A DNA stretch of 53,257 bases from an uncultured Acidobacteriota bacterium (GTDB taxonomy: Bacteria; Acidobacteriota; HRBIN11; JAKEFK01), in assembly GCA_964504105.1 (NCBI GenBank), contig CAZDDB010000001.1:1-53257 (forward strand). The letters run 5' to 3'. The translations under genes and the position numbers were made by a program. The notes under the pieces are model-generated. The model made no database searches and was not told the DNA's origin. It saw only the letters and a list, made by a program, of their open reading frames with translations. Shown here one piece after another: positions 22,581 to 41,033 of this stretch. Within the stretch, counting starts at the first letter, position 1. Every line of letters starts with the position of its first letter.

Positions 22581-22599
22581 TTTGGTTTTTGCAATTCCA

Positions 22600-25380: not shown

Positions 25381-25430
25381 ATAATAATAATACTTGATGT
25401 TTTACTTTCGTTGTTGGCCGGCCGACACTG

Positions 25431-26153
25431 ATGAACCTTCTTGCGATTAGCGACCTCCACTTAAACCCGGCAACCAAAGAACGAGCTGACTTATTTTTGC
25501 AGTTCCTCGCAAAGGCTTTCGAGCGGGGCGATGAAGTTGTCATTGTTGGGGATCTTTTTGATTTATGGTTCGGAAAACACCCTTTTGATTATCAGAAAGA
25601 AGTGTTGGAACGAATGAAGGATCTCGCCGCGCGCGGTCTTGCTCTTCATTATGTGGAAGGGAACCGTGATTTCAACATCCGGCACCTGGCCGGCACAATA
25701 TTTCACGATGTGTGGCCGGAAGCCTTCGAACTCGAATGGCGCGGAAGAAATCTCTATCTGGTACACGGAGATCTGATCAATACAAATGATAAACCGTACC
25801 GCTTGTGGCGCATGCTGACGAAGAATCCTCTCTCGCTTGGAATCCTTGACGCTGTTCCGCGTTCATTTCTGTTGAAAAGATCCTCCAATCTGGAACAACA
25901 GATGAAAACTACGAACCTGAAGCACAAATCCGGTTATCCGGAGGAAGAATGCCGTCGCTTCTGCATGGAGCATTCTCAACGCGGCGCAGACGTTATTGTT
26001 GCGGGTCATTTTCATGCAGAAAGAGAAATGTCCATACAGTTAGAAGACAGGAATGTGTTATTCTATAACCTACCCGGATGGGAACAGGGATTTCGATACC
26101 TTGTTGTTCCGCCGGGAAAAGAAAAACCGTATTTTCAGGGACTGGTAATCTGA
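25431..26153 (+). CDS. lpxH: UDP-2,3-diacylglucosamine diphosphatase-like calcineurin-type metallophosphoesterase
   Basis: ISDLHL, GDLFDLWFG, EGNRDF, VHGDL and GHFH motifs are collinear with LpxH. Confidence 0.7.
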   Translation: MNLLAISDLHLNPATKERADLFLQFLAKAFERGDEVVIVGDLFDLWFGKHPFDYQKEVLERMKDLAARGLALHYVEGNRDFNIRHLAGTIFHDVWPEAFELEWRGRNLYLVHGDLINTNDKPYRLWRMLTKNPLSLGILDAVPRSFLLKRSSNLEQQMKTTNLKHKSGYPEEECRRFCMEHSQRGADVIVAGHFHAEREMSIQLEDRNVLFYNLPGWEQGFRYLVVPPGKEKPYFQGLVI

Positions 26154-26154
26154 T

Positions 26155-26499
26155 ATGGAAATCCTTCAACGTCGCCGCGGAAATGTCGTAATTCTGGATA
26201 TTCATGGAGCCATCTCGATGGGAGAGAGCAAAGAGAAGTTTGCGCAGGTCATGGACGAACTTCTTTCCGAGAAGAGTGTGAATGTCCTGGTGAATTTTTC
26301 AGGTATCAATTACGTGGACAGCACGGGCATTGGCGAAATGGTGGGATACTTGAACAAGTTTGTGGAGAGCAACCGTCAGTTGAAAATTTTAAAACCGCAC
26401 GATCGCGTCCTGAAGCTGCTCCAGATTACAAAGCTTGATTCCATGTTTGAAATCTACCAGGACGAGGAAGAAGGACTGAAAAGCTTCTCCCCTGATTAG
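26155..26499 (+). CDS. STAS-domain anti-sigma-factor antagonist (SpoIIAA/RsbV-like)
   Basis: 114 aa. Conserved phosphorylatable loop YVDSTGIGEMV. Starts 1 nt after the lpxH-like stop. Confidence 0.85.
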   Translation: MEILQRRRGNVVILDIHGAISMGESKEKFAQVMDELLSEKSVNVLVNFSGINYVDSTGIGEMVGYLNKFVESNRQLKILKPHDRVLKLLQITKLDSMFEIYQDEEEGLKSFSPD

Positions 26500-26532
26500 G
26501 ACCCCTATATCATTTCCAGGAGGCTCCATTCC

Positions 26533-27054
26533 ATGCTCATTCGATTGTTCCGTCACTTTTTTTTGATTGCGCTTCTGTTCGCAGCTTTCATCCCCACCGT
26601 TTCGCAGGGACAGCCTGAAAAAGACGAAGAAGATAAAGGAAATATCGAAGACTCATTTCAGGCAAGAATCAAAAATTACTATGAAGCCTGGAATACGTTG
26701 GATACGGAGAAGGCTGGAATCTTTTATGCAAAGGACGCGGATCTGGTTTTCTATGACATCGCCCCGCTGAAATATACCGGATGGGACGAATACAAGACGG
26801 GAGTCAAGAAACTCCTGGAGCCTTACACCAGCTTTCGGCTCGTTCCGGCGGACGACTTGAAGATTTCGCGGCGCGGGAAAATTGTCTGGACCACAATCGG
26901 ATGTCATTTTTCCGGCGTGTTGAAGGATGGGACAAAGGCTGAGTTGGAGGGCCGTCACACTGCCATCTGGGAAAAACAAAAAGGGGAATGGCTCATTGTT
27001 CATGAGCATGTGTCCGTCCCGCTGGCCGCGTCTCCATCAAGCGGCACGAAATGA
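26533..27054 (+). CDS. secreted SnoaL-like / NTF2-fold (DUF4440-like) protein
   Basis: Signal peptide LIALLFAAFIPTVSQG. Pattern ..YYEAWNTLD..GKIVWTT..HTAIWEKQKGEWLIVHEHVS is typical of the NTF2-like fold. Confidence 0.6.
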   Translation: MLIRLFRHFFLIALLFAAFIPTVSQGQPEKDEEDKGNIEDSFQARIKNYYEAWNTLDTEKAGIFYAKDADLVFYDIAPLKYTGWDEYKTGVKKLLEPYTSFRLVPADDLKISRRGKIVWTTIGCHFSGVLKDGTKAELEGRHTAIWEKQKGEWLIVHEHVSVPLAASPSSGTK

Positions 27055-27079
27055 TGTCTAATTACTTAGAGCTAATCAA

Positions 27080-27427
27080 TTAGAATGAAGAGATGGCCGC
27101 TGCTTCGTCCTCGAAAACCTCGAAGATCCCCAGCAGGCCGGTGATTTTCAATGTATGGCGGACCATCTTTCCCGGATTCAGCAATTTCAGCTTTCCGCCG
27201 CTCTGGGTGATCGTCGTATAGCTCTTGACGATCGCCCCGATCCCTGAGCTGTCCATGAACTCCACCGTCTCCAGATTCAGCACTACGCGGTTGTAGTTGC
27301 GCGAGGTCAGATCGGCAATCGCATCCTTGTAACGCTGTTCGTTCGCCCCGACCGTAAGATTTCCGATCAGATCCAGGACTACAACATCCCCTTTCTTTCG
27401 TTTTTGAATATCGAACTCATGATCCAT
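27080..27427 (-). CDS. STAS-domain anti-sigma-factor antagonist (SpoIIAA/RsbV-like)
   Basis: 115 aa. Loop FMDSSGIGAIV with a phosphorylatable Ser. Confidence 0.85.
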   Translation of the reverse strand: MDHEFDIQKRKKGDVVVLDLIGNLTVGANEQRYKDAIADLTSRNYNRVVLNLETVEFMDSSGIGAIVKSYTTITQSGGKLKLLNPGKMVRHTLKITGLLGIFEVFEDEAAAISSF

Positions 27428-27582
27428 TTGCCAACTCCATTTCCGGGAAACCTGCGGGGTTTCCGAACATTGATTGCCCGATGGAAAAATGCTAACATCA
27501 GCGCAAATTGTTTCTGCGCTCAGGACAGGGCTATTATAATTTTGACGTTCCTTGCAGTCAAACCTGAGATAGCGAGGTAGAA

Positions 27583-30009
27583 ATGGCTGAAGAAGCGAGC
27601 AGCAAAATATTTCAGTTGTACCGGCTGGCGTATTCGCTGATTTTTTGCCGCTCCCTTCCGGAGATCCTGGAAACAGCTACTACCAATCTTGCGAAATCGA
27701 CCGGCACGCGCAATGCGATCCTCTGGCAGTTTTCAGCGTCTCAGGCCAGCTTGATTCCCGCTCATCTTCAGCTGGAAGATAAATCGACCCGTACGCGCAC
27801 CGTTTCACTCGGATCTGATTTTCTGGGTGAGGTCTTTCGCAGCGGCAAACCACTTTTTCTGGATGCCGAAAAGTTGCAAGAGTCGAACAAACACGTTCAG
27901 TTCTCCAAAGAAACGATTCTGATCTCCGGCCTTTGCATCCCATTTAAAGGAAAGCCTGAACTTGAAGGGGTGCTTGAACTCGTAAATAAAGCGGAAGGGG
28001 CGTCGACGTTTAACGAGGACGATGCCGAATATGTGAGTAAGGCGATGGAACTGGTGCAGGTCGCAGCGGCCAACATGAAGTCCTATGAAGAACAGGCCCG
28101 CAACCAGCTGAACGCGATTACCAGACTGACGCTTCTGTATGACATAAGCCAGATCTTCAATTCCACGCTGGAACTGGGGCAGTTGCTCCCGATCATCGGT
28201 GAGAAAATTCGCGACATCCTGGATGCCGAAACATGCACCGTCTGGCTTCTGGATGAAACGGGAGAAAAAATCTATTGCGCAAAGAGTTCGGGCGCCTATG
28301 GAGAACTGTTTAAGAAGCTTCGTCCAAAATTGGAAGAGGACATAGCTGGAGAAATCATTCAGCAGGGAGAGGGGATCCTTTTGGAGGATGCGAGCGAAGA
28401 CGAACGCCTGTTGAAACGGATGCCGGATAAAGAGGAGCACCCCGTTGTTACCTATATGGCTTCTCCGCTGGAATGCAAAGGAAAGATTCTTGGCACGCTG
28501 GAAGTTCTCAATCGCGTGAACGAGAACCTCCCCAACTTCAATGAAGAGGACCAGTTTCTGTTAAACGATCTTTCGCATCAGGCAGCGGTTTCCATTCACA
28601 ATGCAAACCTGCTTCAGGCCGAACGGAAAGCAAAAGAACTCGATGCGTTGTTGAGCATCAGCCATGAGATCACGTCCACTCTCAACCTGGATCGTGTTTT
28701 GCTGACGATTGTCAATCAGGCGGCCTCGCTTCTTCCGTACGACCGTGCGGCGATTGCGTTGATGGAAAAGAATAAGCTGGAACTCGTTGCGGTTTCAGGA
28801 ATCATGGAAGTCGACAAGAAGAGCGAGCCCATGATTGATCTCCAGCAAATACTCCTGTGGAGTCTGCAAAGCGGCAAGTCGATGTACATTTCGGAATTCA
28901 ACGAGAAGATCGCTACGGATCGCGAGGAAACACGTGAAAAATTCAAGGCCTACTTCGCCCGCTCCGGTATGAAATCATTTGTCTCCATTCCTCTGAAAGA
29001 TGAAGAAGGGGAACTGGGGATCCTGAGCTTTGAAAGCGATACCGCTTATTTTCTGGATGAACGTCATCTTGAGGTTGCCAGCATTCTTTCGAACCAGGCT
29101 ACGGTCGCGATTCGCAATGCGCAGTTGTACCGCCAGATGCCCTTGATCAACATTATGGGACCGATCATGCAGAAAAAGGCCCTCCTCATGAAAATGCCGC
29201 AGGGCCGCAGGATGGCGTGGGGGGCAGGGATCGCTCTTGCTCTTGCGATTCTGATTCTTGTCCCCTGGAACATGAAGCTTGTTGGAGATGTTACTGTTCT
29301 TCCCGCTCGAAAGACACCTGTGGCGAGTCAGGTGGAAGGCATTGTCAAGAAGGTGTATCTGCGCGAGGGAGCCCGAATCAAGAAAGGCACCCTGATCGCG
29401 TCTCTTGAGGACAACGATTACAGACTTGCCCTGCAACAAAAGCATACGGAGCGAGATGTACTGCAGAAGGAGATCAGTCGCAGTCAAAGCATCGGTGATT
29501 CAGCATCTGCGAGGATGCAGCAGATCCAGTTAGACCAGGTTCTCAGAGAAATTGAATTTTACGAATACAATCTGAATGCCACGAGGATCGTTGCTCCCCT
29601 CGACGGTGTGCTGATCACCCCCAGGATTGAGGAAAAGACCGGTTCACTGCTCGTGAAGGGGGAGGCGTTCTGTGAAGTGGCCGACATGCGTTCGCCCCGT
29701 GCTGAAATCGAGGTCGAAGAGGGGGACGCGGCCTTCGCCGGGACTGGTCAGAAGGTCAGTTTAAAGATGAACGCATACGCTACGCAGAAATTTTACGGGA
29801 CAGTCAATCTTCTGGGTACGCAACTTGTTGCTCGAGATACGGAACACTACTATCGCCTGGAAGCGCAAATTGACAATCCGGACCTGCTGCTCAAGTCGGG
29901 AATGGTAGGAAAAGCAAAAGTGGAGGTTGGCTACCGCAGCATCGGCTATGTCTTATTACGAAAGCCCTTCCGATTTATATGGAAAAAGTTTTGGGTCTGG
30001 CTCCCCTGA
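27583..30009 (+). CDS. triple-GAF / TM / HlyD-family membrane-fusion-protein fusion
   Basis: RBS GAGG 7 nt upstream. About 530 aa of three GAF-like modules, TM helix MAWGAGIALALAILILVPW, then HlyD features (VASQVEGIVKKVYLREGARIKKGTLIASLED, coiled coil, IVAPLDGVLITP). Confidence 0.85.
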   Translation: MAEEASSKIFQLYRLAYSLIFCRSLPEILETATTNLAKSTGTRNAILWQFSASQASLIPAHLQLEDKSTRTRTVSLGSDFLGEVFRSGKPLFLDAEKLQESNKHVQFSKETILISGLCIPFKGKPELEGVLELVNKAEGASTFNEDDAEYVSKAMELVQVAAANMKSYEEQARNQLNAITRLTLLYDISQIFNSTLELGQLLPIIGEKIRDILDAETCTVWLLDETGEKIYCAKSSGAYGELFKKLRPKLEEDIAGEIIQQGEGILLEDASEDERLLKRMPDKEEHPVVTYMASPLECKGKILGTLEVLNRVNENLPNFNEEDQFLLNDLSHQAAVSIHNANLLQAERKAKELDALLSISHEITSTLNLDRVLLTIVNQAASLLPYDRAAIALMEKNKLELVAVSGIMEVDKKSEPMIDLQQILLWSLQSGKSMYISEFNEKIATDREETREKFKAYFARSGMKSFVSIPLKDEEGELGILSFESDTAYFLDERHLEVASILSNQATVAIRNAQLYRQMPLINIMGPIMQKKALLMKMPQGRRMAWGAGIALALAILILVPWNMKLVGDVTVLPARKTPVASQVEGIVKKVYLREGARIKKGTLIASLEDNDYRLALQQKHTERDVLQKEISRSQSIGDSASARMQQIQLDQVLREIEFYEYNLNATRIVAPLDGVLITPRIEEKTGSLLVKGEAFCEVADMRSPRAEIEVEEGDAAFAGTGQKVSLKMNAYATQKFYGTVNLLGTQLVARDTEHYYRLEAQIDNPDLLLKSGMVGKAKVEVGYRSIGYVLLRKPFRFIWKKFWVWLP

Positions 30010-30025
30010 TGTAACCCTGCCCAAA

Positions 30026-32080
30026 ATGCGATCGGATCTGGTGATCCGTCGGCAGGTCCATCAGAAAGAAGTCTATTACATCGTCAAAGATCCCCCGGCG
30101 ATGGCGTACTTTAACTTTCCTCCTTCCGAACACGAAATCCTGACGCTCTTTGATGGAAAGCGAACGGATGAGGAAATCATTGATGAATACAACCGGAGGC
30201 ATCCGTTGGAAATCATCGATGAAGACGGATTGGCAGCCTCGAAGGCAGGGTTTCGGGAAATGGAACTCCTCGAGATCCCTCCACGTGTCAAGAACCTGAT
30301 GCTTATGGAGCGTATCCGCGCTCAGCGGCAACTTCGAAAGAAAGCCACCGAAGGCGACATTTTTTACATGACGTTTTCCGCCTGGGACCCGGACAGAATC
30401 TTTAACCGTGTGATTCCGTATCTCCGCTTCTTCTGGACGCGCGAATTTCTTCTGATTTCTGCTGTTTGCATCCTGATGATGCTCGGAATCAACTATGTCA
30501 AATGGGAAGAATTTAAGCAGGGCACGATTGAACTTTATTCGTTTAGTAATAAATCGCTGTGGGAAGTTTTCGTATTTATTTTTCTGATGACGGCTACCGG
30601 CACGGTTCACGAGCTTGCTCACGGACTGACTCTGAAGAATTATGGCGGAGAAGTTCATCAGGTGGGTTTTCTGCTGTTTTACCTTACTCCCGCATTCTAC
30701 GCAGACGTCAGCGATTCGTATATCCTTCCGCGGAAAGAGCGCCTGTGGACTACGCTTGCAGGGACATATGCCGAGTTGATGCTCTGTTCCATCGCCTCCT
30801 TTGTCTGGTATTTTGCTGTGCCGGGAACGCTGATCTACTACTTTGCCTTTCAGGTGATTCTGTTTACAGGCATTTCTTCCTTCCTGATCAATATGAACCC
30901 CCTCATCAAGCTGGATGGATACTTCATCCTGATGGATACGTTGGAAATACCGGATCTTCGCGAAGAATCCTTTTCTTTCGTTGTTCGATGGGTCAAGAAG
31001 AATGTCTTCGGGTTACAGGTAGAAGAAGAGGAGCAGACAACGCGGCGGAGACGGCGTATTTTTATCACTTATGCCTTCTTTGCCATGCTGTACACTCTCA
31101 CAATCTACCTGTTGGTAGTGATCTGGATACGGAATATCTATCTCAACTCCTTTGGAAGGGTTGGTTATTTTCTGTTCCTGGTTACGGTGTATTTCCTTTT
31201 CCGGAAAGAAATCAAGGAAATATTTCAATTCGGCAAGTTTGTCTATCTGGATAAGAAAGAGGTGCTTATGAAGAAGAAACCTGCCATCTGGATCGGCGGC
31301 GGGATCGCGCTGATTTTGCTTCTGGTGTTTCCCGCGCACACAAAGATTTCGAGCGCTTTTGTTGTGGAACCTTCCCAAAGAGTGGAAGTGCGAGCCGGAA
31401 CAGACGGGTTTATTGACCAGGTGCTTGTTCGCGAAAGTGATTCCGTTCAGCCGGGCCAAGTCCTTGTCCGAATGAAGAATCGTGATATGGACCTTCACGT
31501 TATGCAGATCAGCTCCGGGTTGGAGCAGCGAACCCGCACTTTATATGCCCTGCAGTCGTTGGAAGACAAAGCAGAATATCAGATGAGACAGCGTGAGCAG
31601 AAACAGCTTCTGGAACAGAAAACGGAGTTGGATCGAAAGATTGGGCAGCTGGTTCTGAAGTCGCCGATTCGAGGAACAGTCATGACTCCCCGCGTGGATG
31701 AGTTGACCGGAACATATGTTGAAAAGGGCGTGCTGGTTTGCGTGATTGGATCGCTGGATCGAGTTCGGATCCAGATCCCGGTGCAAGAGTATGCGATAGA
31801 GGACATTTCGGTCGGTCGGGAGGTCGTGCTAAAACTGGACGCTTATCCGACGAAAACATATCCCGGTGTGGTGGCGGAAATCTCTTCTGCCGGAACAGAA
31901 AGAGTGGATGCAATCGAGGGATCCTTTGCGAAATTTATGGTAACGGTATTGATTGAGAATCAGGATCGCCGGTTGGTTCCTGGAATGAGAGGGGACGCGA
32001 AGATTTTGGGCCCGAGATATCCAACGATCTGGAGGATGGGCCGCGAAGTCCGCCGCTGGATACAGTCGCGTGTCTGGTGA
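30026..32080 (+). CDS. PqqD/RRE-like N-domain / site-2-protease (M50) / HlyD fusion protein
   Basis: HELAH and NMNPLIKLDG metalloprotease motifs in a multi-TM core. N-terminal YYIVKDPPAMAYFNFPPSEHEILTLFDGKRTDEEIIDEY. C-terminal TM plus HlyD unit. The start is uncertain: ATG 30026 is chosen, and in-frame ATG 29948 / TTG 29927 would overlap the upstream gene. Confidence 0.8.
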   Translation: MRSDLVIRRQVHQKEVYYIVKDPPAMAYFNFPPSEHEILTLFDGKRTDEEIIDEYNRRHPLEIIDEDGLAASKAGFREMELLEIPPRVKNLMLMERIRAQRQLRKKATEGDIFYMTFSAWDPDRIFNRVIPYLRFFWTREFLLISAVCILMMLGINYVKWEEFKQGTIELYSFSNKSLWEVFVFIFLMTATGTVHELAHGLTLKNYGGEVHQVGFLLFYLTPAFYADVSDSYILPRKERLWTTLAGTYAELMLCSIASFVWYFAVPGTLIYYFAFQVILFTGISSFLINMNPLIKLDGYFILMDTLEIPDLREESFSFVVRWVKKNVFGLQVEEEEQTTRRRRRIFITYAFFAMLYTLTIYLLVVIWIRNIYLNSFGRVGYFLFLVTVYFLFRKEIKEIFQFGKFVYLDKKEVLMKKKPAIWIGGGIALILLLVFPAHTKISSAFVVEPSQRVEVRAGTDGFIDQVLVRESDSVQPGQVLVRMKNRDMDLHVMQISSGLEQRTRTLYALQSLEDKAEYQMRQREQKQLLEQKTELDRKIGQLVLKSPIRGTVMTPRVDELTGTYVEKGVLVCVIGSLDRVRIQIPVQEYAIEDISVGREVVLKLDAYPTKTYPGVVAEISSAGTERVDAIEGSFAKFMVTVLIENQDRRLVPGMRGDAKILGPRYPTIWRMGREVRRWIQSRVW

Positions 32081-32183
32081 AGAAATCGTTTGGGGGGCGG
32101 GCCTCCGTGCCCGCCGAAGAAGTTAGCGGAATCCGGCAGGCAGGGACGCCCGCCCCTCCGGATCGGATTGTGGACAAAAGCAA

Positions 32184-32216
32184 AAGGCCATCCCGGAGGA
32201 TGGCCCTTGTTTTTTG
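32184..32216. terminator. bidirectional rho-independent terminator between convergent genes
   Basis: Stem GGCCATCC / GGATGGCC with a 4-nt loop. It is flanked by an A-run on the 5' side and GTTTTTT on the 3' side, so a U-tract is present on both strands. Confidence 0.7.
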
Positions 32217-32225
32217 TGCGTGTGA

Positions 32226-32507
32226 TCAGCCCACTCTTTTTGGATTGGCTCTCTTTGCCGCTCTCTTTGGATTGGCTCTCTTTGCCGCCCTTTTTGGATT
32301 GGCTCTCTTTGCCGCTCTCTTTGGATTGGCTCTCTTTGCCGCTCTTTTCGGATTCGCTCTCTTTGCCGCCCTTTTCGCCGCAAGTCTCGGGGCCAGCATC
32401 GGCGTTACTTTCGCCTCAACCGTTTCCACCTTGATTTCCGGCTGTTCCGAACGAGCCTGTCTCAACTGTTCTTTTTGTTCCTCGGTCATTTCAAATTTAT
32501 CTGGCAT
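32226..32507 (-). CDS. small acidic-N / basic-repeat protein (5 x AAKRANPKR), histone-H1-like composition
   Basis: AGGAGG 8 nt upstream of ATG 32507, a sigma-54 promoter about 40 nt upstream, and a terminator downstream. 93 aa. Confidence 0.7.
   Translation of the reverse strand: MPDKFEMTEEQKEQLRQARSEQPEIKVETVEAKVTPMLAPRLAAKRAAKRANPKRAAKRANPKRAAKRANPKRAAKRANPKRAAKRANPKRVG
32232..32380. repeat. 27-bp tandem repeat, about 5.5 copies (unit ctctttgccgctctctttggattggct)
   Basis: Read directly. Units start at 32249, 32276, 32303 and 32330, with partial copies at both ends. In frame with the 93-aa minus-strand ORF. Confidence 0.9.
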
Positions 32508-32543
32508 TTTCTTTTCCTCCTATTCGATCTTTGCACTTTGAGC

Positions 32544-32563
32544 TATTGCAATCCTCTTGCCAA
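32544..32563 (-). promoter_or_regulatory. sigma-54 (-24/-12) promoter
   Basis: Minus strand reads TTGGCAAGAGGATTGCAATA, matching TGGCAC-N5-TTGCW with GG and GC at canonical spacing. Confidence 0.7.
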
Positions 32564-32635
32564 CTATCATTTCCTCGGAGGCAACGTAAAGGAGAGTCTT
32601 ATCAGAGTAAATTTTCATCCTTGAAGGAGAAGGAG

Positions 32636-32652
32636 AGGTGAATTTTTCACCT
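32636..32652. promoter_or_regulatory. perfect 7-3-7 palindrome AGGTGAAtttTTCACCT, candidate enhancer-binding-protein site (UAS)
   Basis: Centred about 95 nt upstream of the -12 element of the sigma-54 promoter. Confidence 0.4.
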
Positions 32653-32672
32653 GAGGTATTCTTGCGCAAGCC

Positions 32673-34052
32673 CTAAAGGTCATATTTTCGGGAGAGGTAC
32701 TTCATCTGGTTTTTGTCGAGACCGAGGCTCTGTGCTGCTTTGGTTTTGACACCGCTGGCTTTTTGCAAGGCATCCTGAAGAAGCTGACGCTCGAATTTTT
32801 CTACGGCCTGATCAAAGGTCATTCCCGCATCAAGACGAATGTCAGGCGATCCGGAGTCACGATGTTCCTTTTGAATGTATGAAGGGAGATCCCGCGCTCG
32901 GATCGTTTTTTGGTCGCTCATGAGGATCAAAGTCTGCACCAGATTTTCCAGCTCGCGGACATTTCCTTTCCATGAATACGAAACCAGGGGTTGCAGGGCA
33001 TCCGGATCAAAATTCTTTACAGGGATACCATTCTCCTTACAAAACAGATGCAGAAAGTGATTCAACAGGGCCGGGATGTCTTCCGTCCGTTCCCGGAGCG
33101 GGGGGACATGAATCGGAAATACGTGAACGCGGTAGTAAAGGTCCTCACGGAATTGTTCTTCCTTTACTTTCTTTTCGAGATCTTCATTGGTAGCGGTAAT
33201 CAGCCGAACGTCTGCTGAAATCTGTTTGGTTCCGCCGATCCGATCGAACCGACGCTCTTGCAGGACGCGCAACAGTTTGGCCTGAACGGAAAGACTGATG
33301 GATCCGATTTCATCAAGGAACAACGTGCCGCCGTGAGCCAGTTCAAAGCGTCCCGCGCGCGCCGACACGGCGCCTGTAAACGCACCGCGCTCATGACCGA
33401 ACAGTTCCGATTCAATCAGGGTTTCCGGCAGTGCTGCGCAATTGACGCTCACAAACGCCTTTTCGCGCCGGCGGCTGTTGTAATGAATCGCGCGCGCGAT
33501 CAACTCTTTGCCCGTCCCGCTCTCCCCGCGGATGATCACGGTTGCGGGAGTATCCGCCACGCGCCTGATTGCATCGAAAACGCGCAGCATCGGCGGGCTT
33601 TGCCCGATCATGTTTTCGAAGGAATAGCGGTTCTGTAACTCCCGGTGCAGCCGGTCATTTTCCAGCTGGATCCTTTGTTTTTCGAGCGCACGACCGATGA
33701 TCAGCTTCAGTTCCGTCAAATCAAACGGTTTCTTAAAAAAATCGTAAGCGCCTGCATCCACCGCTTTCTGGATCGCCTTCATGTCCGCGTCACCGGACAT
33801 CACAATAATGATTGTTTCCGGAAGGTCTCTCCGGATCGTTTCGATCAGAGACATTCCTTCCTGGATCTTTCCTGTGGGAGGCATATGCAGATCTACAAGC
33901 GCCAGCTCCGGCTTTTCCTGCAATAGCAGACGTTCCCCTTCGATCCGGTCACCGGCCTCGATGACTTCGTAATCTTTGTTCAGGGCGAACGAGAGCTGCT
34001 GACGGAGAAGGCGATCATCCTCCACCACAGCAATTTTTTTATGTGGGAGCAT
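32673..34052 (-). CDS. sigma-54-dependent response regulator (NtrC family: REC - AAA+ - Fis HTH)
   Basis: Start at ATG 34052 (MLPHKKIAVVEDD..). REC domain with acceptor Asp in LALVDLHMPP, Walker A GESGTGKE, GAFTGA loop, and a C-terminal HTH. Overlaps the kinase stop by 14 nt. Confidence 0.9.
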   Translation of the reverse strand: MLPHKKIAVVEDDRLLRQQLSFALNKDYEVIEAGDRIEGERLLLQEKPELALVDLHMPPTGKIQEGMSLIETIRRDLPETIIIVMSGDADMKAIQKAVDAGAYDFFKKPFDLTELKLIIGRALEKQRIQLENDRLHRELQNRYSFENMIGQSPPMLRVFDAIRRVADTPATVIIRGESGTGKELIARAIHYNSRRREKAFVSVNCAALPETLIESELFGHERGAFTGAVSARAGRFELAHGGTLFLDEIGSISLSVQAKLLRVLQERRFDRIGGTKQISADVRLITATNEDLEKKVKEEQFREDLYYRVHVFPIHVPPLRERTEDIPALLNHFLHLFCKENGIPVKNFDPDALQPLVSYSWKGNVRELENLVQTLILMSDQKTIRARDLPSYIQKEHRDSGSPDIRLDAGMTFDQAVEKFERQLLQDALQKASGVKTKAAQSLGLDKNQMKYLSRKYDL

Positions 34053-34749
34053 TTTCTTCCGAAGGCAAATCAACGGGCAGGACAATCCGGAACGTGGTTC
34101 CCTCATTCGGGCTGCTTTCGACTTCAATCTTGCCGTGATGAAGCGCGAAGATCTGCTGGCTGGTGAACAAGCCCAGACCGAGGCCATTCTCTTTTGTGGT
34201 GATAAACGGACGGAACAGTTTGCTTTCCATAAAACCCTGGCTCATTCCGATGCCTGTGTCGGAAATCTCAACAATTACCCAGGGCTTTTTCCTGCGGCGC
34301 AACACTTTTGTCTTGACCCCCAGCGTGCCGCCTTCGGGCATCGCTTCTGCCGCGTTTTCGATGAGACTCTGAAATGCATTTTGTAAATAGAACGTGTCTC
34401 CCCAAAGCAGCGGCATCTCTCCAAGACTCAGTTCGATCTTCAGGTTCCGTGTCCTCCCGGAGGGGAGGGCATCCAGCAACCCTGCGAGGATCTGGTTGAG
34501 ATCCACGCGGACTTTTACCATGACGTGCTGCTGCTGTTCCTTGAACCGCTTCACAATATCGTTCATCTTGCGGATCGTGTCGCCCAAAACATCGAGCATA
34601 CTCTTCTTGAACAGTGGATTTTCGTAGTTGTCATCCATGTTTTGCAAGAGCGCGCTCAGGCGGAACGCCAGGTTCTTCATGTCATGGACGATCACGGAAT
34701 CAACAGTCTGTCCGACTGTGTTCTGACTATCTTTTCGTTTTCGTGTCAT
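34039..34749 (-). CDS. soluble histidine kinase core (HisKA + HATPase_c) without a sensor domain
   Basis: H-box SVIVHDMKNLAF, N-box LIENAAEAM, G-boxes DTGIGM and GLGLGL. 236 aa and no TM segment. Confidence 0.85.
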   Translation of the reverse strand: MTRKRKDSQNTVGQTVDSVIVHDMKNLAFRLSALLQNMDDNYENPLFKKSMLDVLGDTIRKMNDIVKRFKEQQQHVMVKVRVDLNQILAGLLDALPSGRTRNLKIELSLGEMPLLWGDTFYLQNAFQSLIENAAEAMPEGGTLGVKTKVLRRRKKPWVIVEISDTGIGMSQGFMESKLFRPFITTKENGLGLGLFTSQQIFALHHGKIEVESSPNEGTTFRIVLPVDLPSEENAPT

Positions 34750-34761
34750 CGATGGAACGGT

Positions 34762-36432
34762 TCAGCTGATTGTGTCCGGTTCTTGTTCGATTGCCGTGTA
34801 ACGCAGGATGAATACCGAAATATCATCCGACTGCGGTGTCCCCGCAGCGTGTTCCGCGACGGCCCGGAAAACGTTCGCAACAATTTCTTCCACAGACTTT
34901 TGCCGGTTTGCGTATAAAATGTTTTTCAAACTCTCTTCCCCCAGCATCTCCCCGCCTTCGCTGCGCGCTTCGGTGACCCCGTCGGTGAACAGGCAAACCA
35001 GGTCTCCCGGCTGAAGATACATGCTGATTTCCTGATACTTTGCAAAGTCAAAAGCTCCCAGAACGACAGAGGCAGAATACAATTCCTCTATGTGTCCATT
35101 CGCGTGGATTACAATCGGTGGATTGTGCCCCGCATTGACGTATCGAAGTTCCCCATCGCGCGAGATTGCCCCATAGAATAGGGTAATGAACTTGTCCGAA
35201 TTAGTGCGGAGAACAAGATACTTGTTCACACTCTCCAGACAGGCCGCGAGAGAGTCACATCGTAGTGCTTCCGCATAAAGAAACCCCTGCGCCATAGAAC
35301 ACAGGAGCGCGGCAGAAATTCCCTTCCCGGAGACATCTGCAATCACGAATCCGTACCGGTCCTCAGAAAGCTTGATCAAATCGTAGTAGTCTCCGCTGAT
35401 GTGACGGCTCGGAATGTTCTGGGCGCATGCCGAAAAAAAACTATACGCTCCGCGGATCTTAGGCAATAAAGTGGCCTGTATTTCATGTGCTGTTGCCAAC
35501 TCGGTCTCCAGACGTTCTTTCTCCCGCGATTCTTTCAGTAACCGCGCATTCTCTATGACTCCTGTCGCATCCGTGGCCAGCGAGTCCAGGATTCCCTGAC
35601 TGATCTTGGAAAAAGATTCCGTTGCCTTCTTACTATCCAGGTAAAGAGCGCCAAGCACATCTTTTCTGCCGACATAGGAAGAAGTGGAGAAATCGACTAC
35701 CTGGTACGACTGCAGGGGTAAACATGCAATGCTGCGAATTTCCAGATTGAGCATGCTTTCTGACATCACATACTTCTCCGGGCCCTGGACATCCGAAAGA
35801 AGAACCCTTTCGCCTGATTCCATCACCTGTTTGAGAATGGTCGTACTAATTTGAAACGCCTCTTCTGGAAGCGGCTGCTTGGCGCGGTTCCGGCCTCGTT
35901 GAAAACGTGGCTCTCCGTTCTTATCCTTCAGCACCAGGAACCCCCGTTCAGCGCGCGTAACTTCGATGGCCATATCCAGCACCAGGTCAAGGATTTCTCC
36001 AAGCGGGAGCGCGCCACTAAAGATTCTCGCCGTCTCCAAAAGCTTCGAAACATTCCGAAGATCGTTTCCCGCAAAGGACATGATAATCGAAGGCGTATCC
36101 GGCCCAAGTCCGGTATCCGTGGTGAGTTGATCTTCTCCCGTGAGAAAGACAGCTTGTGTTTCATTCCCGAGTTGAATCCGGTCCTGGTGCACGAGGATCT
36201 GGTTCTGGATTCGTGTTGCATTGACAAACGTACCGCACTTGCTTCCTTTGTCTACGATCCGGAATTTCTCGCCCTCCCGAATGATCTCAGCGTGGTGGCG
36301 GGAAACTGAAGCGTCATTGGTTTGAAGGTCATTCTCGCCACTTCGTCCGATCGTAAACCGGAGCGCCTCCAGGAAAATAGTTTGTTCTTCTCCCGTTGTG
36401 GAGCGAACAATCTTAATTCGAGGCTTCATCAT
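34762..36432 (-). CDS. FHA - GAF - PP2C(SpoIIE-type) serine phosphatase
   Basis: FHA: FTIGRSGENDLQ..VSRHHAEI..IVDKGSKCGTFVN. Central GAF-like module. PP2C: ISGDYYDL..FVIADVSGKGISAAL..FTDGVTEA. Confidence 0.85.
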   Translation of the reverse strand: MMKPRIKIVRSTTGEEQTIFLEALRFTIGRSGENDLQTNDASVSRHHAEIIREGEKFRIVDKGSKCGTFVNATRIQNQILVHQDRIQLGNETQAVFLTGEDQLTTDTGLGPDTPSIIMSFAGNDLRNVSKLLETARIFSGALPLGEILDLVLDMAIEVTRAERGFLVLKDKNGEPRFQRGRNRAKQPLPEEAFQISTTILKQVMESGERVLLSDVQGPEKYVMSESMLNLEIRSIACLPLQSYQVVDFSTSSYVGRKDVLGALYLDSKKATESFSKISQGILDSLATDATGVIENARLLKESREKERLETELATAHEIQATLLPKIRGAYSFFSACAQNIPSRHISGDYYDLIKLSEDRYGFVIADVSGKGISAALLCSMAQGFLYAEALRCDSLAACLESVNKYLVLRTNSDKFITLFYGAISRDGELRYVNAGHNPPIVIHANGHIEELYSASVVLGAFDFAKYQEISMYLQPGDLVCLFTDGVTEARSEGGEMLGEESLKNILYANRQKSVEEIVANVFRAVAEHAAGTPQSDDISVFILRYTAIEQEPDTIS

Positions 36433-36445
36433 AAAACGAGGCGAC

Positions 36446-37228
36446 TTACGGGGAGGTGGCGGCTGTCCCTTGACCGGGCTTTGTGCGAAGAATCACCTTT
36501 CCCGAAGTTCCGGGTCTCAGCAAACCTTTTCCTTGGCCCGGATCCAGCTCGACGATCGCCTGCGCGGTGCCGCTGGCTGCGTCAATCGTTGAACTGATCC
36601 ATTTCACCCTCCCTGCGAAACTCTTTCCCGTGGCGACATTCGGCACAAAATCTGCCTTCATTCCGGACGTGACTTGCGGCAACTGCTCTTCGGTGATCAA
36701 GATGCGCGCTAGAAGAGGCTCGAGGGCCGTGATCCGAAACAAAGGTGTGTTTTCGTCTTCCACGACACGTTGTCCAATCTTCGCGGATAGCTCAGCCACA
36801 ACTCCCGGGAAAGGGGCTTTGATGATACTCTTTTCAAATTCAACTTTTGCGATCTGATGCTGGGTTTCTGCCCGTTCATTGGAAAGACGCTTCAGATCAT
36901 ACTCTGATTCAGAAAGAAGTTTTTGATCGAAAAGTGACTTCGCTCTCTGATACTCCGCTTTCGTCTCTTCCATGGAGACTTCTGCTTTCTTCACTTCGAG
37001 AGCAAAATCTTCGTTCTGAAGTCTCGCGAGCGGATCTCCTTTCTTTACCCAGGAACCGCGGTCCACGAAAATCTGCTCGATGATCCCGGTCAGGCGGGAT
37101 TTTACTTCCACGTCGTTTTTGGTAAACAGTGCTGTATCAAAACGAAGCGGGGGATCCGCAGGAAAGGCCGCACCTGTAAGGAAAATGAATGTGAGGAGAG
37201 CAGGCAACCTTATATTTCGCAAACCCAT
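36446..37228 (-). CDS. short HlyD/RND-adaptor-like periplasmic protein
   Basis: Signal/anchor LPALLTFIFLTGAAF. Barrel-sandwich KSRLTGIIEQIFVDRGSWVKKGDPLARLQNED, a short coiled coil, and IIKAPFPGVVAEL. Confidence 0.8.
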   Translation of the reverse strand: MGLRNIRLPALLTFIFLTGAAFPADPPLRFDTALFTKNDVEVKSRLTGIIEQIFVDRGSWVKKGDPLARLQNEDFALEVKKAEVSMEETKAEYQRAKSLFDQKLLSESEYDLKRLSNERAETQHQIAKVEFEKSIIKAPFPGVVAELSAKIGQRVVEDENTPLFRITALEPLLARILITEEQLPQVTSGMKADFVPNVATGKSFAGRVKWISSTIDAASGTAQAIVELDPGQGKGLLRPGTSGKVILRTKPGQGTAATSP

Positions 37229-37298
37229 CGTTACCTCAAGTTAGCACAATCCTCGAGCAAATCAAAGCCGTGGGAACGCCCGCGCTACAAACGCGACG

Positions 37299-37327
37299 TT
37301 GACTGAAAATTGAATTGTCTCTAGAAT
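37299..37327 (+). promoter_or_regulatory. candidate sigma-70 promoter giving a leaderless or very short-leader cNMP-FHA/uvrA transcript
   Basis: TTGACT-N17-TAGAAT. The -10 hexamer ends 10 nt before ATG 37338 and no Shine-Dalgarno is visible. Confidence 0.5.
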
Positions 37328-37337
37328 TGACTTACAA

Positions 37338-38105
37338 ATGACCTCCGAGCTTTTCGAGAAGTACCGGGTATCGTATAAGAGGGGACAAATCATTTTTTCC
37401 GAGGGAGACCTGGGGAACGAGATGTTCATCATCCAGAACGGAAAGGTCCGTATCTTTAAGAACATCGATAACTTCGATCAGACGCTGACTGTTTTGGAAA
37501 AGGGGGACTTCTTCGGGGAGATGTCTATTCTGGAAGGAATGCCCCGCTCCGCTTCCGCTGAATCGGAAGAGGATTGCGAGCTGATCAAGATCAACAGCGC
37601 GAATTTTGTCTCGATGATTAAATCGAACATCGAGATCGCGATCAGGATCATGCGAAAACTTTCGTTGCGGCTCCGTGAGGCAAACCAGCAGATCGAAAAA
37701 CTCATGCACGCTTCCACGGAGATGTTTCCTTTGCCCGAACCTCCCCCAGTGAAACAAACAAAGGCAGCCGATGCGCAGGCGTATCTCGTATCCGCGATGT
37801 CGGGGAAAACATTTTCTCTTGGCAAAGAGGAGGCGTATGTCGGGCGGGTGGACCGCGTAACGGGAGCTGTTCCTGATATTGATCTGTCGGATGAAGACCC
37901 CAAACGCTTTATCTCGCGCCGTCATGCAAAGATCGTCAAACAAGAGGAAGAGTTTCTTCTGGTGGAAGAAATCGGCACCGTAAACGGCACGTTTCTGAAC
38001 AATCAGAGATTGGCCACCGGAGCTCCTGTGCCATTAAAAAACGGCGATACGTTGACGTTTGCCAATATCACGCTTACCTTTTATCACACAGCGGCCGAAT
38101 CATAA
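37338..38105 (+). CDS. cyclic-nucleotide-binding domain + FHA domain protein
   Basis: cNMP-binding pattern GDLGNEMFIIQNGKVRI..GDFFGEMSILEG.PRSASA. C-terminal FHA: YVGR..ISRRHAKI..GTVNGTFLNN. Confidence 0.85.
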   Translation: MTSELFEKYRVSYKRGQIIFSEGDLGNEMFIIQNGKVRIFKNIDNFDQTLTVLEKGDFFGEMSILEGMPRSASAESEEDCELIKINSANFVSMIKSNIEIAIRIMRKLSLRLREANQQIEKLMHASTEMFPLPEPPPVKQTKAADAQAYLVSAMSGKTFSLGKEEAYVGRVDRVTGAVPDIDLSDEDPKRFISRRHAKIVKQEEEFLLVEEIGTVNGTFLNNQRLATGAPVPLKNGDTLTFANITLTFYHTAAES

Positions 38106-38138
38106 GTGAAATTGCCTGACAAGTGCAGGCACACCACA

Positions 38139-40907: not shown

Positions 40908-41003
40908 ACTGTGACTCATGCCCGGCCGGGCGTGCGCCTGGATTGTTGCACCGTGCGTGGCTAAAACTCATTGTAGTACTACGGCAATGTTAATCGTAAG
41001 TAA

Positions 41004-41033
41004 TTGACAGACAGCATTTTTTCCTGATATGAT
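41004..41033 (+). promoter_or_regulatory. candidate sigma-70 promoter of the FHA-RDD operon
   Basis: TTGACA-N18-TATGAT, about 50 nt upstream of ATG 41083 (RBS GGAGGGAG). Confidence 0.5.

What the first reader, a model, noticed from the sequence alone, without database searches (positions are those of the whole stretch)
32226..32507. Sigma-54-driven 93-aa protein: acidic head plus five AAKRANPKR repeats (H1-like nucleoid protein, or multi-core peptide precursor?)
The minus-strand ORF has a textbook RBS (AGGAGG 8 nt before the ATG), its own sigma-54 promoter and a terminator, so I take it as real even though all frames are open across the repeat. The N-terminal half is acidic (MPDKFEMTEEQKEQLRQARSEQPEIKVETVEAKV). 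The C-terminal half is five near-identical 9-residue units AAKRANPKR, encoded by a 27-bp tandem DNA repeat. Ala/Lys/Arg/Pro repeats are the hallmark of bacterial histone-H1-like proteins (Chlamydia Hc1/Hc2, AlgP-type KPAA repeats). That points to an inducible DNA-, RNA- or polyanion-binding protein. An alternative reading is that an acidic leader followed by iterated cores resembles a multi-core peptide precursor, and the convergent neighbour is the RRE-like/M50 protease fusion. Copy number is likely to vary between strains.
Basis: partly seen in the sequence, partly recalled or inferred. Interest (0 to 1): 0.65.

Follow-up and report, generated by a model that had tools for sequence, protein, structure and literature searches.

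The report
Sigma-54 precursor peptide with cationic repeats
This small, strongly transcribed gene most likely encodes the leader-bearing precursor peptide of an undescribed cassette whose membrane protease carries a peptide-recognition domain and a secretion-adaptor domain, so it is probably a processed, exported peptide rather than a histone-like DNA-binding protein.

Summary
There is a 93-aa minus-strand ORF (32226-32507) with an AGGAGG ribosome-binding site, a sigma-54 promoter, a terminator and five identical AAKRANPKR units from a 27-bp tandem repeat. Eight sediment metatranscriptomes cover this gene and essentially nothing beside it.

It is not an orphan. Relatives share a conserved ~36-residue N-terminus (invariant T8, Q11, P36) followed by unrelated repeat tails. 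Most tails are very basic, but some are charge-neutral DRANP repeats.

In every lineage with enough flank, the gene sits beside a sigma-54 response regulator and an M50/site-2-protease-HlyD fusion. That fusion's N-terminal domain folds as a RiPP recognition element (top structural matches TbiB1 and TfuB1).

Shorter ~50-aa relatives, up to four in tandem, lie in an equivalent GAF-HlyD / HlyD / M50-HlyD cassette with a Crp-type regulator. Their leaders end in ELEERIAP, close to the daptide leader motif ELExMEAP.

Best reading: a sigma-54-induced precursor. Its leader docks on the protease's recognition domain, and its polycationic repeat tail is released and probably exported. The H1-like resemblance is compositional.

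Cleavage, export and product form are inferred, not shown. Copy number differs (5, 4, 2, 1) among four assemblies of the species.

The parts
32226..32507 (-). CDS of the 93-aa precursor peptide, stop codon included
   Evidence: Homologues were found by exhaustive phmmer and by profile search. RNA contigs cover 32259-32520 in 8 metatranscriptomes.
32400..32507 (-). Leader region, residues 1-36, ending at the family-invariant Pro36 (...VETVEAKVTP)
   Evidence: Family alignment A3 has invariant T8, Q11 and P36. AlphaFold predicts a helix at 9-20 and coil at 21-37.
32229..32399 (-). Variable core or tail, residues 37-93: MLAPRLAAKR + 5 x AAKRANPKR + VG. Net charge +23.
   Evidence: It is not alignable between lineages.
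32234..32375 (-). 27-bp tandem repeat array, 5.3 copies. The five complete units are at 32235-32369.
   Evidence: Differences between units are all synonymous.
32516..32521 (-). Shine-Dalgarno AGGAGG, 8 nt before the ATG
   Evidence: GGAGG is also present upstream in all relatives.
32547..32562 (-). Sigma-54 promoter TGGCAAGAGGATTGCA (GG at 32560-32561, GC at 32548-32549). The expected transcription start is near 32536.
   Evidence: It is conserved at -52 to -81 from the ATG in 7 lineages.
32637..32651 (.). Palindrome GGTGAAAAATTCACC, the likely enhancer (UAS) site for the adjacent sigma-54 activator
   Evidence: The same or near-same palindrome lies at about -130 to -145 in L098, L089, L097 and L088. 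Imperfect versions occur in L096 and L087.
32605..32620 (.). Second, imperfect UAS-like site GGATGAAAATTTACTC
   Evidence: Read. It matches the second site GGTTGAAAAATTACCC of L096, L097 and L088.
32183..32208 (-). Intrinsic terminator hairpin followed by a T-run
   Evidence: It is conserved in L001, L002 and L098.
32673..34052 (-). NtrC-type sigma-54-dependent response regulator (459 aa as called in L001), immediately upstream on the same strand
   Evidence: Orthologues (50-67% identity) lie next to the small gene in L085, L087, L088, L089/L090, L096 and L097.
34039..34749 (-). Soluble histidine-kinase core (DHp + HATPase_c, no predicted membrane segment)
   Evidence: It is conserved in L085, L096 and L097.
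34762..36432 (-). FHA-GAF-PP2C (SpoIIE-type) phosphatase
   Evidence: It is conserved in L096 and L097.
36446..37228 (-). Stand-alone HlyD-type membrane-fusion protein, 260 aa
   Evidence: Orthologues are in L092, L095, L096 and L097.
27583..30009 (+). GAF-GAF-(one TM)-HlyD protein, 808 aa
   Evidence: Orthologues are in L089 (62% identity), L092 and L095 (about 30%), L096 and L097.
29927..32080 (+). RRE - intramembrane M50/site-2 metalloprotease - HlyD fusion. RRE is at residues ~31-115, HELAH at 228, NMNPLIKLDG at 322, the last TM at 452-470, and the HlyD domain at 480-717.
   Evidence: (NF041824, 200 bits). There are 743 homologues at E<=1e-10.

Best explanation
The 93-aa protein is the precursor (substrate) peptide of a conserved seven-gene cassette. 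The cassette comprises GAF-HlyD, RRE-M50 protease-HlyD, the peptide, a sigma-54 response regulator, a kinase core, an FHA-GAF-PP2C phosphatase and a stand-alone HlyD protein.

Proposed mechanism:
1. The adjacent NtrC-type activator binds the GGTGAAAAATTCACC palindromes and fires the sigma-54 promoter. This produces a short monocistronic mRNA. The promoter and the transcript are shown; activator binding is inferred.
2. The conserved leader (residues 1-36) is bound by the cytoplasmic RRE domain of the membrane protease (inferred).
3. The site-2-type metalloprotease cuts at or just after the invariant Pro36. This is inferred from the leader-end motif shared with daptide precursors, which are processed by the homologous RRE-S2P MpaP.
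4. The released 57-residue, +23 tail is handed across the envelope through the periplasmic HlyD domains of the three membrane-fusion proteins (inferred).

The 27-bp repeat is how this lineage built and resizes its core. Whether the tail acts whole as a polycation or is further cut after each RANP is not decided.
For: Real, expressed gene:
- RNA contigs cover only 32259-32520 in 8 metatranscriptomes, and almost nothing else in 20 kb.
- The frame is fixed by homologues and by synonymous-only differences between units.

Sigma-54 control:
- The promoter and the UAS palindromes are conserved in 7 lineages whose intergenic DNA has otherwise diverged.
- The activator gene is adjacent in all of them.

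Linkage to the protease:
- The M50-HlyD fusion lies next to the small gene in the window, L085, L089, L096 and L097 despite an inversion of gene order in L089.
- The ~50-aa relatives sit in an equivalent GAF-HlyD / HlyD / M50-HlyD cassette with a different regulator in L092-L095.

Protease features:
- The N-terminal domain is modelled at pLDDT 94-97 with three strands followed by three helices. The best PDB matches are leader-binding RREs: TbiB1, TfuB1, CteB and SuiB.
- HExxH and NxxPxxxxDG are intact.
- It matches the NCBIfam daptide intramembrane metalloprotease model at 6e-59 over the RRE and protease parts.

Precursor-like conservation:
- The four tandem paralogues in L092 are 82% identical in the leader and 19% in the tail.
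- There is an invariant Pro at the junction.
- The short-family leader end ELEERIAP resembles the daptide motif ELExMEAP at -8..-1 (bioRxiv 10.1101/2023.03.08.531785).
- There is no signal peptide or membrane segment in the peptide.

Precedent: the M50 protease EpeP is thought to both cleave and export an epipeptide (PMC10885120).
Against: - No cleavage, export or product has been observed.
- The cassette has no ABC or other energised transporter, no outer-membrane factor and no modifying enzyme. The export route is therefore unexplained.
- The protease scores below NCBIfam's daptide cut-off (200 against 300 bits).
- The window's own leader end (VETVEAKVTP) keeps only the Pro and the hydrophobic spacing of the ELExMEAP motif.
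- Short relatives in L083 and L084 have no M50-HlyD within 8 kb.
- In one strain variant (L002, X4), other genes are inserted between the peptide gene and the protease gene.
- The strand of the RNA is not known, because contigs carry no direction.
- The RNA 5' ends at 32517-32520 are not a mapped transcription start.
Confidence: 0.55

Rival explanations
1. Multi-core precursor. After leader recognition, the protease cuts after every ...RANP. This would release four to five identical short cationic peptides (such as KRAAKRANP) that act as signals or antimicrobials. Repeat number would then set dosage.
For: - The unit repeats the last residues of the leader-end motif. Compare P0077 ...VETVEERANP|GVRSFYID. 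In P0008 and P0028 the leader ends ERGNP/DRGNP, and every unit starts with DRANP followed by a 4-7-residue variable spacer.
- Units are kept identical at the peptide level while their DNA has diverged synonymously in the window, L087 and L096.
- Short relatives have cores of only 2-10 residues after the junction Pro.
- An independent three-unit repeat R[VK]SPTELG occurs in P0039.
Against: - Several basic relatives have no Pro in the unit: P0003 AAKRLSSKK, P0005, and P0026 KKVGL.
- L097's tail is degenerate, not unit-like.
- Tail net charge is nearly constant (+23 to +27) across five lineages with different units and lengths. This points to selection on the whole tail.
- A site-2 protease acting processively on a soluble, non-helical polycation has no precedent that I know of.
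Confidence: 0.2
2. Intracellular histone-H1-like polyanion binder. The basic Ala/Lys/Arg/Pro tail binds DNA, RNA or polyphosphate in the cytoplasm, while the acidic N-terminus masks it. The protease, if involved, activates or degrades it.
For: - The tail has 40% K+R, 32% Ala, 11% Pro and net charge +23.
- Four relatives hit Pfam HC2 (Chlamydia histone-like), best E 1.8e-8.
- Both the RRE and the S2P active site face the cytoplasm, so a cleaved tail could stay inside.
- The gene is inducible and very highly transcribed in situ.
Against: - The window protein itself hits no Hc1, HC2 or other Pfam or NCBIfam model and no PDB sequence.
- The HC2 hits are low-complexity matches.
- The DRANP clade, in the same synteny, has a net -2 tail.
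- Short relatives have 2-10-residue tails that cannot bind DNA.
- This reading gives no role to three HlyD-domain proteins and an RRE.
Confidence: 0.15
3. Regulatory substrate or decoy. The peptide is not a product but a signalling element. For example, it may be a cytoplasmic ligand of the RRE-protease-HlyD or GAF-HlyD complex, and its cleavage would feed back on the kinase / PP2C / sigma-54 regulator circuit.
For: - The cassette is rich in signalling parts: GAF, FHA, PP2C, a kinase core and a response regulator here, and a Crp-type regulator in L092 and L095.
- It has no transporter and no modifying enzyme.
- The conserved part of the family is the leader, not the tail.
Against: - Hypervariable tails, tandem paralogues and repeat expansion are typical of secreted products, not of regulatory ligands.
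- Very high transcript level relative to all cassette genes fits a stoichiometric product better.
Confidence: 0.08
4. Not a protein-coding gene in this frame. The repeat would be non-coding, or the plus-strand ORF (32077-32541, LFGLALFAA repeats) would be the expressed one.
For: - All frames are open across the repeat.
- Unit differences are nearly silent in one plus-strand frame too.
- RNA contigs carry no strand.
Against: - Protein-level homologues have 45-58% identical N-termini, different tails and diverged DNA.
- The RBS, sigma-54 promoter and terminator are all on the minus strand and are conserved.
- RNA coverage ends at the minus-strand 5' UTR and does not extend over the rest of the plus-strand ORF (32077-32258).
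- There is no Rfam match above threshold.
Confidence: 0.02

Closest known systems
Daptide RiPP system (precursors MpaA/DapA; RRE-fused intramembrane site-2 protease MpaP/DapP)
   Same: - The protease has an N-terminal RRE fused to an M50/S2P core and is homologous to the daptide enzyme (NF041824, E 6e-59, covering RRE plus protease).
- The leader ends with a conserved motif whose last residue is Pro. The short relatives have ELEERIAP against daptide ELExMEAP at -8..-1.
- Some genomes carry several tandem precursors.
   Different: - There is no DapB, DapC, DapD or DapM (no PF00465 dehydrogenase, no PF00202 aminotransferase) anywhere in the 53-kb window.
- There is no invariant C-terminal Thr and no aliphatic core.
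- The protease carries an extra C-terminal HlyD domain and scores below the family cut-off.
- The hosts are Gram-negative-type phyla, not Actinobacteria or Firmicutes.
- ABC exporters are replaced by HlyD-domain proteins.
Epipeptide system EpeX/EpeP (YydF/YydH) of Bacillus subtilis
   Same: A membrane M50 protease removes the leader of a small ribosomal peptide and is thought also to export it (PMC10885120). There is weak homology (NF058609, 57 bits).
   Different: There is no radical-SAM epimerase (YydG) and no YydIJ ABC transporter. The score is far below the cut-off of 225. An RRE and a HlyD domain are added.
Class II bacteriocin / microcin export by a peptidase-containing ABC transporter plus a HlyD-type membrane-fusion protein (own knowledge)
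   Same: An unmodified peptide with an N-terminal leader and no Sec signal is processed. Leader removal is coupled to a HlyD-family adaptor, and expression is under a dedicated two-component regulator.
   Different: The leader peptidase is an RRE-guided zinc intramembrane protease fused to the adaptor, not a C39 cysteine peptidase on an ABC transporter. There is no double-glycine motif and no ATPase in the cassette.
Bacterial histone-H1-like proteins (Chlamydia Hc1/Hc2, Pseudomonas AlgP) (own knowledge, plus Pfam HC2)
   Same: Tandem Ala/Lys/Arg/Pro repeats, an extreme positive charge and predicted lack of a globular fold. Some relatives hit Pfam HC2.
   Different: The window protein has no model hit. 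It has a conserved acidic leader with an invariant junction Pro. It shows obligate synteny with an RRE-protease. Non-basic and very short-tailed relatives exist.
Multi-core precursors such as cyanobactin PatE or fungal alpha-factor (own knowledge)
   Same: One leader is followed by iterated units, each carrying a copy of a short conserved motif next to a short variable or identical segment. Unit number varies between strains.
   Different: There are no cyanobactin proteases (PatA/PatG) or Kex2-type sites. Cutting between units has not been shown.

Membership tests
Sigma-54-dependent gene | -24 GG / -12 GC element with canonical spacing (TGGCAC-N5-TTGCW) upstream of the gene | tested here: met
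   TGGCAAGAGGATTGCA at 32547-32562(-) is the only exact match in the window. The same element lies 52-81 nt upstream of the ATG in L085, L087, L088, L089, L096, L097 and L098.
Sigma-54-dependent gene | A cognate bacterial enhancer-binding protein and upstream activator sites | tested here: met
   An NtrC-type regulator (Sigma54_activat 9e-74, HTH_8) is adjacent in all lineages. Paired palindromes GGTGAA-N3-TTCACC lie about 75-90 bp upstream of the -24 element and are conserved. Binding itself was not tested.
Sigma-54-dependent gene | Transcription start about 12 nt downstream of the GC, dependent on RpoN | tested here: inconclusive
   RNA coverage starts at 32517-32520, where contigs run into adapter. 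That is 16-19 nt downstream of the expected +1 (~32536). Nothing is covered upstream. This is compatible with the promoter but is not a mapped start. RpoN dependence cannot be tested here.
RRE-dependent leader peptide / precursor (RiPP-type logic) | A RiPP recognition element (PqqD-like fold with three strands then three helices) in a neighbouring processing enzyme | tested here: met
   An AlphaFold model of residues 1-175 of the M50-HlyD protein has pLDDT 94-97 for residues 31-115, with strands 39-45, 48-55 and 60-64 and helices 66-74, 81-91 and 99-111. Foldseek's top hits are TbiB1 (5v1u, 5v1v; TM 0.68-0.73), TfuB1 (6jx3), CteB and SuiB.
RRE-dependent leader peptide / precursor (RiPP-type logic) | Bipartite peptide with a conserved leader and a hypervariable core; often several paralogues | tested here: met
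   Alignment A3 has an invariant T8, Q11 and P36, and the tails are not alignable. The four tandem paralogues in L092 show leader identity 0.82 and tail identity 0.19.
RRE-dependent leader peptide / precursor (RiPP-type logic) | Physical binding of the leader to the RRE, and cleavage by the protease | not testable with these tools
No biochemical data exist.
RRE-dependent leader peptide / precursor (RiPP-type logic) | Post-translational modification enzymes acting on the core | tested here: not met
   No radical-SAM, YcaO, lanthipeptide, dehydrogenase or aminotransferase genes lie in or next to the cassette, here or in L092, L095, L096 or L097. The product may be unmodified.
Daptides | DapP/MpaP-type RRE-S2P peptidase (NCBIfam NF041824 equivalog) | tested here: inconclusive
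   It is the best NCBIfam hit: E 5.8e-59, 200 bits, model positions 18-365 of 379. The score is below the curated cut-off of 300, and the protein has an extra HlyD domain.
Daptides | [quoted passage not shown] | tested here: not met
   The window leader end is VETVEAKVTP, the core is K/R/A-rich, and the C-terminus is ...KRVG. Short relatives have ELEERIAP but no C-terminal Thr. No NCBIfam daptide precursor hit was found.
Daptides | DapB (DUF-RRE), DapC (PF00465), DapD (PF00202) and DapM genes | tested here: not met
   None was found among all ORFs of at least 120 aa scanned in the window.
Histone-H1-like nucleoid proteins (Hc1/Hc2/AlgP) | Match to the family models | tested here: not met
   The window protein has 0 Pfam families at E<=0.01 and nothing relevant at E<=1. 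It has 0 NCBIfam hits and 0 PDB sequences. 4 of 23 relatives hit PF07382 HC2 through KKAAPK repeats.
Histone-H1-like nucleoid proteins (Hc1/Hc2/AlgP) | The basic repeat is the conserved, function-bearing part | tested here: not met
   The conserved part is the acidic leader. The DRANP clade has net charge -2, and the short clade has 2-10-residue tails.
Histone-H1-like nucleoid proteins (Hc1/Hc2/AlgP) | DNA binding or nucleoid condensation | not testable with these tools
   This needs EMSA or localisation experiments.
NHLP / Nif11 leader-peptide families | Match to the TIGR03793 or TIGR03798 leader models | tested here: not met
   There were no NCBIfam hits for the window protein or for 8 relatives at E<=1.
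CpxP/Spy/ZraP (LTXXQ) periplasmic proteins | LTXXQ-motif domain with a signal peptide | tested here: not met
   Only the short LTEEQKxQ motif is shared. There is no Pfam hit and no hydrophobic N-terminus. L099 shows what a true LTXXQ protein looks like.

The most novel reading that the evidence does not exclude
The cassette is a new kind of peptide-processing and export machine of diderm bacteria (Acidobacteriota, Gemmatimonadota and others). An RRE-guided intramembrane site-2 protease is fused to a membrane-fusion (HlyD) domain. Together with two further HlyD proteins, it would take the place of the usual peptidase-ABC transporter. Its substrates form an undescribed precursor family. In this lineage the cores have expanded by tandem duplication into polycationic or multi-core peptides, used as secreted signals or antimicrobials under sigma-54 control.
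Probability: 0.3. Interest if true: 0.85.

Novelty: new variant of a known kind. Interest (0 to 1): 0.68.

Why it matters
If the reading is right, a small repeat ORF that annotation pipelines leave unnamed is the product gene of a widespread cassette with no curated model. The protease alone has 743 homologues at E<=1e-10.

It would extend the leader-peptide/RRE logic of RiPP biosynthesis to a transporter-less protease-adaptor fusion in poorly studied soil and sediment phyla.

It would give a ribosomal route to a ~+23 polycation or to iterated short peptides. It would also show tandem DNA repeats acting as a fast way to resize a peptide product between strains.

The gene is also the dominant transcript of its region in natural sediments, so the product is likely to matter ecologically.

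Tried and rejected
- The word-index search with the full protein found only same-species copies, which at first suggested an orphan. The exhaustive search overturned this.
- A genome-contig scan with the small protein found nothing.
- The 80 GTDB loci with remote (<=29% identity) M50-HlyD relatives contain no family member by HMM and no ELExxxAP-type small ORF. The link therefore holds only for a subclade of these proteases.
It gave one same-species locus and one false positive, a CpxP/Spy-like LTXXQ protein.
- Pfam PqqD was not detected in the protease N-terminus even at E<=10, so the RRE had to be shown by structure.
- The Rfam scan of the region gave only sub-threshold noise.
- Literature searches for an RRE/M50/HlyD system found no description.
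- An exact look-up of window proteins for a taxon name gave nothing. An Acidobacteriota origin is inferred only from named homologues at 57-60% identity.
- NHLP/Nif11, LTXXQ and DUF1192 relationships were considered and rejected.
Full report
**1. The observation**

- AGGAGG (32516-32521) lies 8 nt before the ATG.
- A 27-bp tandem repeat (32234-32375; 5.3 copies, 92% matches) encodes five identical AAKRANPKR units.
- All 18 pairwise DNA differences between units are third-position and synonymous in this frame.
- TGGCAAGAGGATTGCA (32547-32562, minus strand) is the only exact sigma-54 consensus in 53 kb. Alone it is weak evidence, because 23 of 100 shuffles give one.
- A hairpin with a T-run follows the stop codon.
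- Other frames are indeed open across the repeat.

**2. It is transcribed**

Twenty runs labelled as metatranscriptomes from several studies hold the sequence. In the eight I laid out, contigs identical to the window cover 32259-32520 and nothing in the flanking genes.

Over 20 kb (24000-43999) it is the only feature covered in all four runs examined. Two contigs end at 32517 and 32520 and run directly into Illumina adapter.

The 5' boundary therefore lies just downstream of the promoter, and there is no read-through from the regulator gene. The expected start is about 32536. The 16-19-nt gap is compatible with the usual loss at cDNA 5' ends, but this is not a mapped start. Contigs carry no strand.

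**3. It has a family**

The word-index search found only two near-identical shorter copies. The exhaustive phmmer search found true relatives aligned over the whole length: P0003, P0005, P0008, P0010, P0013, P0014 and P0015.
- They share an N-terminus of the form IIxLTEEQKxQMRxATGQEHxEIKVETVG..L[AS]P.
- Their tails are unrelated tandem repeats: AAKRLSSKK, AAKRLVAKK, VMAKKAAPK, VAPKRLAKA and KKVGL.
- One clade has charge-neutral DRANP-spacer repeats.

A profile of the N-termini then retrieved about 65 proteins of 45-55 aa. They read ...IRIELTEEQKAQVKAATGKDARAIELNAEELEERIAP, followed by only 2-10 variable residues. In the joint alignment T8, Q11 and P36 (window numbering) are invariant. No Pfam or NCBIfam model covers any of them.

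**4. Conserved neighbourhood**

- L096 and L097 (protease 59% identical) have exactly the window's gene order with different flanks: GAF-HlyD, M50-HlyD, then convergently the small gene, sigma-54 regulator, kinase core, FHA-GAF-PP2C and HlyD. Their small proteins are 125 aa (nine [IT][ML]AKKAAPK[QM] units) and 111 aa (degenerate basic tail).
- In L089 the small gene instead follows the protease on the same strand, with the regulator convergent.
- In L085, the DRANP clade, the order is kinase, regulator, small gene, then a convergent protease at 32% identity.
- L087 and L088 are short contigs that show the regulator followed by the small gene.
- The short ~50-aa relatives in L092-L095 sit after GAF-HlyD, HlyD (283-290 aa), M50-HlyD (about 30% identical over the full length) and a Crp/cNMP regulator. 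There are four tandem copies in L092-L094 and a single copy in L095.

The peptide, the protease fusion and the two other HlyD proteins therefore travel together while the regulator is swapped.

There is an exception. In L083 and L084 the short peptide lies in a cox/xdh maturation cluster without the protease. None of 80 loci with remote (<=29% identity) M50-HlyD proteins has a family member.

**5. Regulation**

Every sigma-54-type cassette has TGGCA-N6-TTGC[AT] 52-81 nt upstream of the ATG. Most also have one or two palindromes of the type GGTGAAAAATTCACC or GGTTGAA-N-TTCAACC about 75-90 bp further upstream. In the window these are at 32637-32651, with a second imperfect site at 32605-32620.

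The surrounding intergenic DNA is otherwise diverged, so these elements are under selection. They are the expected promoter and enhancer sites for the adjacent NtrC-type activator.

**6. The protease**

The 717-aa neighbour has an intact HELAH (228) and NMNPLIKLDG (322). It has several membrane segments, the last at 452-470, followed by a HlyD barrel-sandwich/beta-barrel domain.

Its best NCBIfam hit is the daptide intramembrane metalloprotease (E 6e-59, 200 bits, below the cut-off of 300). The alignment starts at residue 51, so it includes the part that in daptide enzymes is an N-terminal RRE (bioRxiv 10.1101/2023.03.08.531785).

Pfam does not see a PqqD domain. An AlphaFold model of residues 1-175, built from 41 sequences, nonetheless gives pLDDT 94-97 for residues 31-115, with three strands followed by three helices. 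Foldseek's best PDB matches are all leader-binding RREs: TbiB1, TfuB1, CteB and SuiB.

**7. Leader-end motif**

Daptide precursors carry ELExMEAP at -8..-1 (bioRxiv 10.1101/2023.03.08.531785). The motif is needed for binding to the RRE of MpaB. The paper proposes, without assaying it, that MpaP, the RRE-protease homologous to the one here, then removes the leader.

The short relatives here end their leader with ELEERIAP. Intermediates read VETVEERANP (P0077), and the window reads VETVEAKVTP. By analogy the cut is placed at or after Pro36; this is an inference.

The repeat unit of the window (…KRANP) and of the DRANP clade copies the last residues of that junction motif. This is the main argument for a multi-core reading.

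Against that reading:
- Several relatives have Pro-free units.
- One relative has a degenerate tail.
- Tail charge is nearly constant, at +23 to +27, across five lineages.

On the other hand, units are kept identical at the peptide level while their DNA diverged synonymously in the window, L087 and L096. In L096 the differences by codon position are 31:39:147. Arrays of 15, 27 and 30 bp show independent expansions (the 15-bp period is inferred from the 5-residue KKVGL unit of P0026).

**8. The peptide itself**

AlphaFold predicts a helix at 9-20, coil to 37 and short helices broken at each Asn-Pro, with pTM 0.32, so there is no globular fold. There is no signal peptide or membrane segment.

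**9. Strain variation**

Four assemblies at about 98% DNA identity carry 5 (window), 4 (L098), 2 (L001) and 1 (L002) units. The two smallest come from k141 short-read assemblies and could be collapsed.

L002, and independently run X4, have other genes (Rrf2, DUF2292) inserted after the terminator.

**10. Verdict**

The gene is real, sigma-54-driven and highly expressed. The best-supported function is precursor or substrate of the RRE-S2P-HlyD protease. Leader removal would release a polycationic repeat tail that is probably exported.

The reasons for proposing export are the three HlyD proteins and the EpeP precedent (PMC10885120). Cleavage, export, product form and biological role are inferred.

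The H1-like idea is reduced to a compositional resemblance. It survives only as a minority alternative in which the tail stays in the cytoplasm.

The system is not a daptide. It lacks the modifying enzymes, the C-terminal Thr and the aliphatic core, and no curated family or paper I could find describes it.

The host is probably an acidobacterium, judged only from named homologues.

Noticed in passing
L083:8001-8159; L084:8001-8153 and 15591-15973: Short family members (46-52 aa) lie inside a CO-/xanthine-dehydrogenase maturation cluster (coxG, small gene, AAA_5 MoxR-like, VWA CoxE, XdhC) with no M50-HlyD within 8 kb. Two further copies lie beside a BTAD/AAA_16 regulator. The window also has a Mo-hydroxylase cluster at 15210-23394. 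A possible link was not examined.
   Followed up: partly
window 32392-32521 (runs X2, X3): DNA contigs from the same sediment study hold a copy of the leader-coding region with 13 differences (about 90% identity) and a completely different upstream sequence. This is a paralogue or a sister species with another promoter.
   Followed up: no
L002:2800-4592; run X4 at window 32177; L098:5400-5529: After the terminator, the L002/X4 strain type departs from the window and carries Rrf2 and DUF2292 genes. L098 has a third version of the intergenic spacer. The junction between the peptide gene and the protease gene is a hotspot of strain variation.
   Followed up: partly
window 32096-32154: A GC-rich hairpin lies just after the M50-HlyD stop codon, distinct from the small gene's terminator. 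It gave only spurious sub-threshold miRNA hits in Rfam. It is probably the protease operon's terminator.
   Followed up: no
window 37338-38105 (+): A cNMP-binding/FHA protein is divergent from the cassette's HlyD gene. Crp-type cNMP regulators precede the peptides in L092 and L095, and GAF domains sit on the HlyD and PP2C proteins. Cyclic-nucleotide input recurs throughout.
   Followed up: no
P0039 (67 aa): An independent three-unit repeat R[VK]SPTELG[VI] occurs in the short-leader subfamily. Each unit begins with a copy of the junction motif, as in the window and DRANP clades.
   Followed up: no
tails of window, P0003, P0015, L096:12197-12574, L097:12205-12540: The net charge of the basic tails is +23 to +27 in five lineages despite different unit sequences and tail lengths (55-86 aa). 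This suggests selection on total charge.
   Followed up: partly
window 29927-30009: The GAF-HlyD and M50-HlyD ORFs overlap by up to 83 nt. The public gene call starts the protease 7 codons later (710 aa, P0095). Translational coupling is likely.
   Followed up: no
L099:10001-10400: The pattern scan pulled in a CpxP/Spy-like LTXXQ protein (MFDGIELTEEQRQQMRDLMQQ...). The family's LTEEQKxQ motif resembles LTXXQ, and P0072 gives a weak CpxP hit (E 0.013). This is probably convergence in a helix-start motif.
   Followed up: partly
window 10083-13481; L097:1-7147: Large Ser/Thr protein kinases with TPR repeats lie near the cassette (one in the window, three in L097). Several FHA-domain proteins are also nearby (34762-36432, 37338-38105, 41083-42300). 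Phospho-Ser/Thr signalling may feed into the cassette.
   Followed up: no
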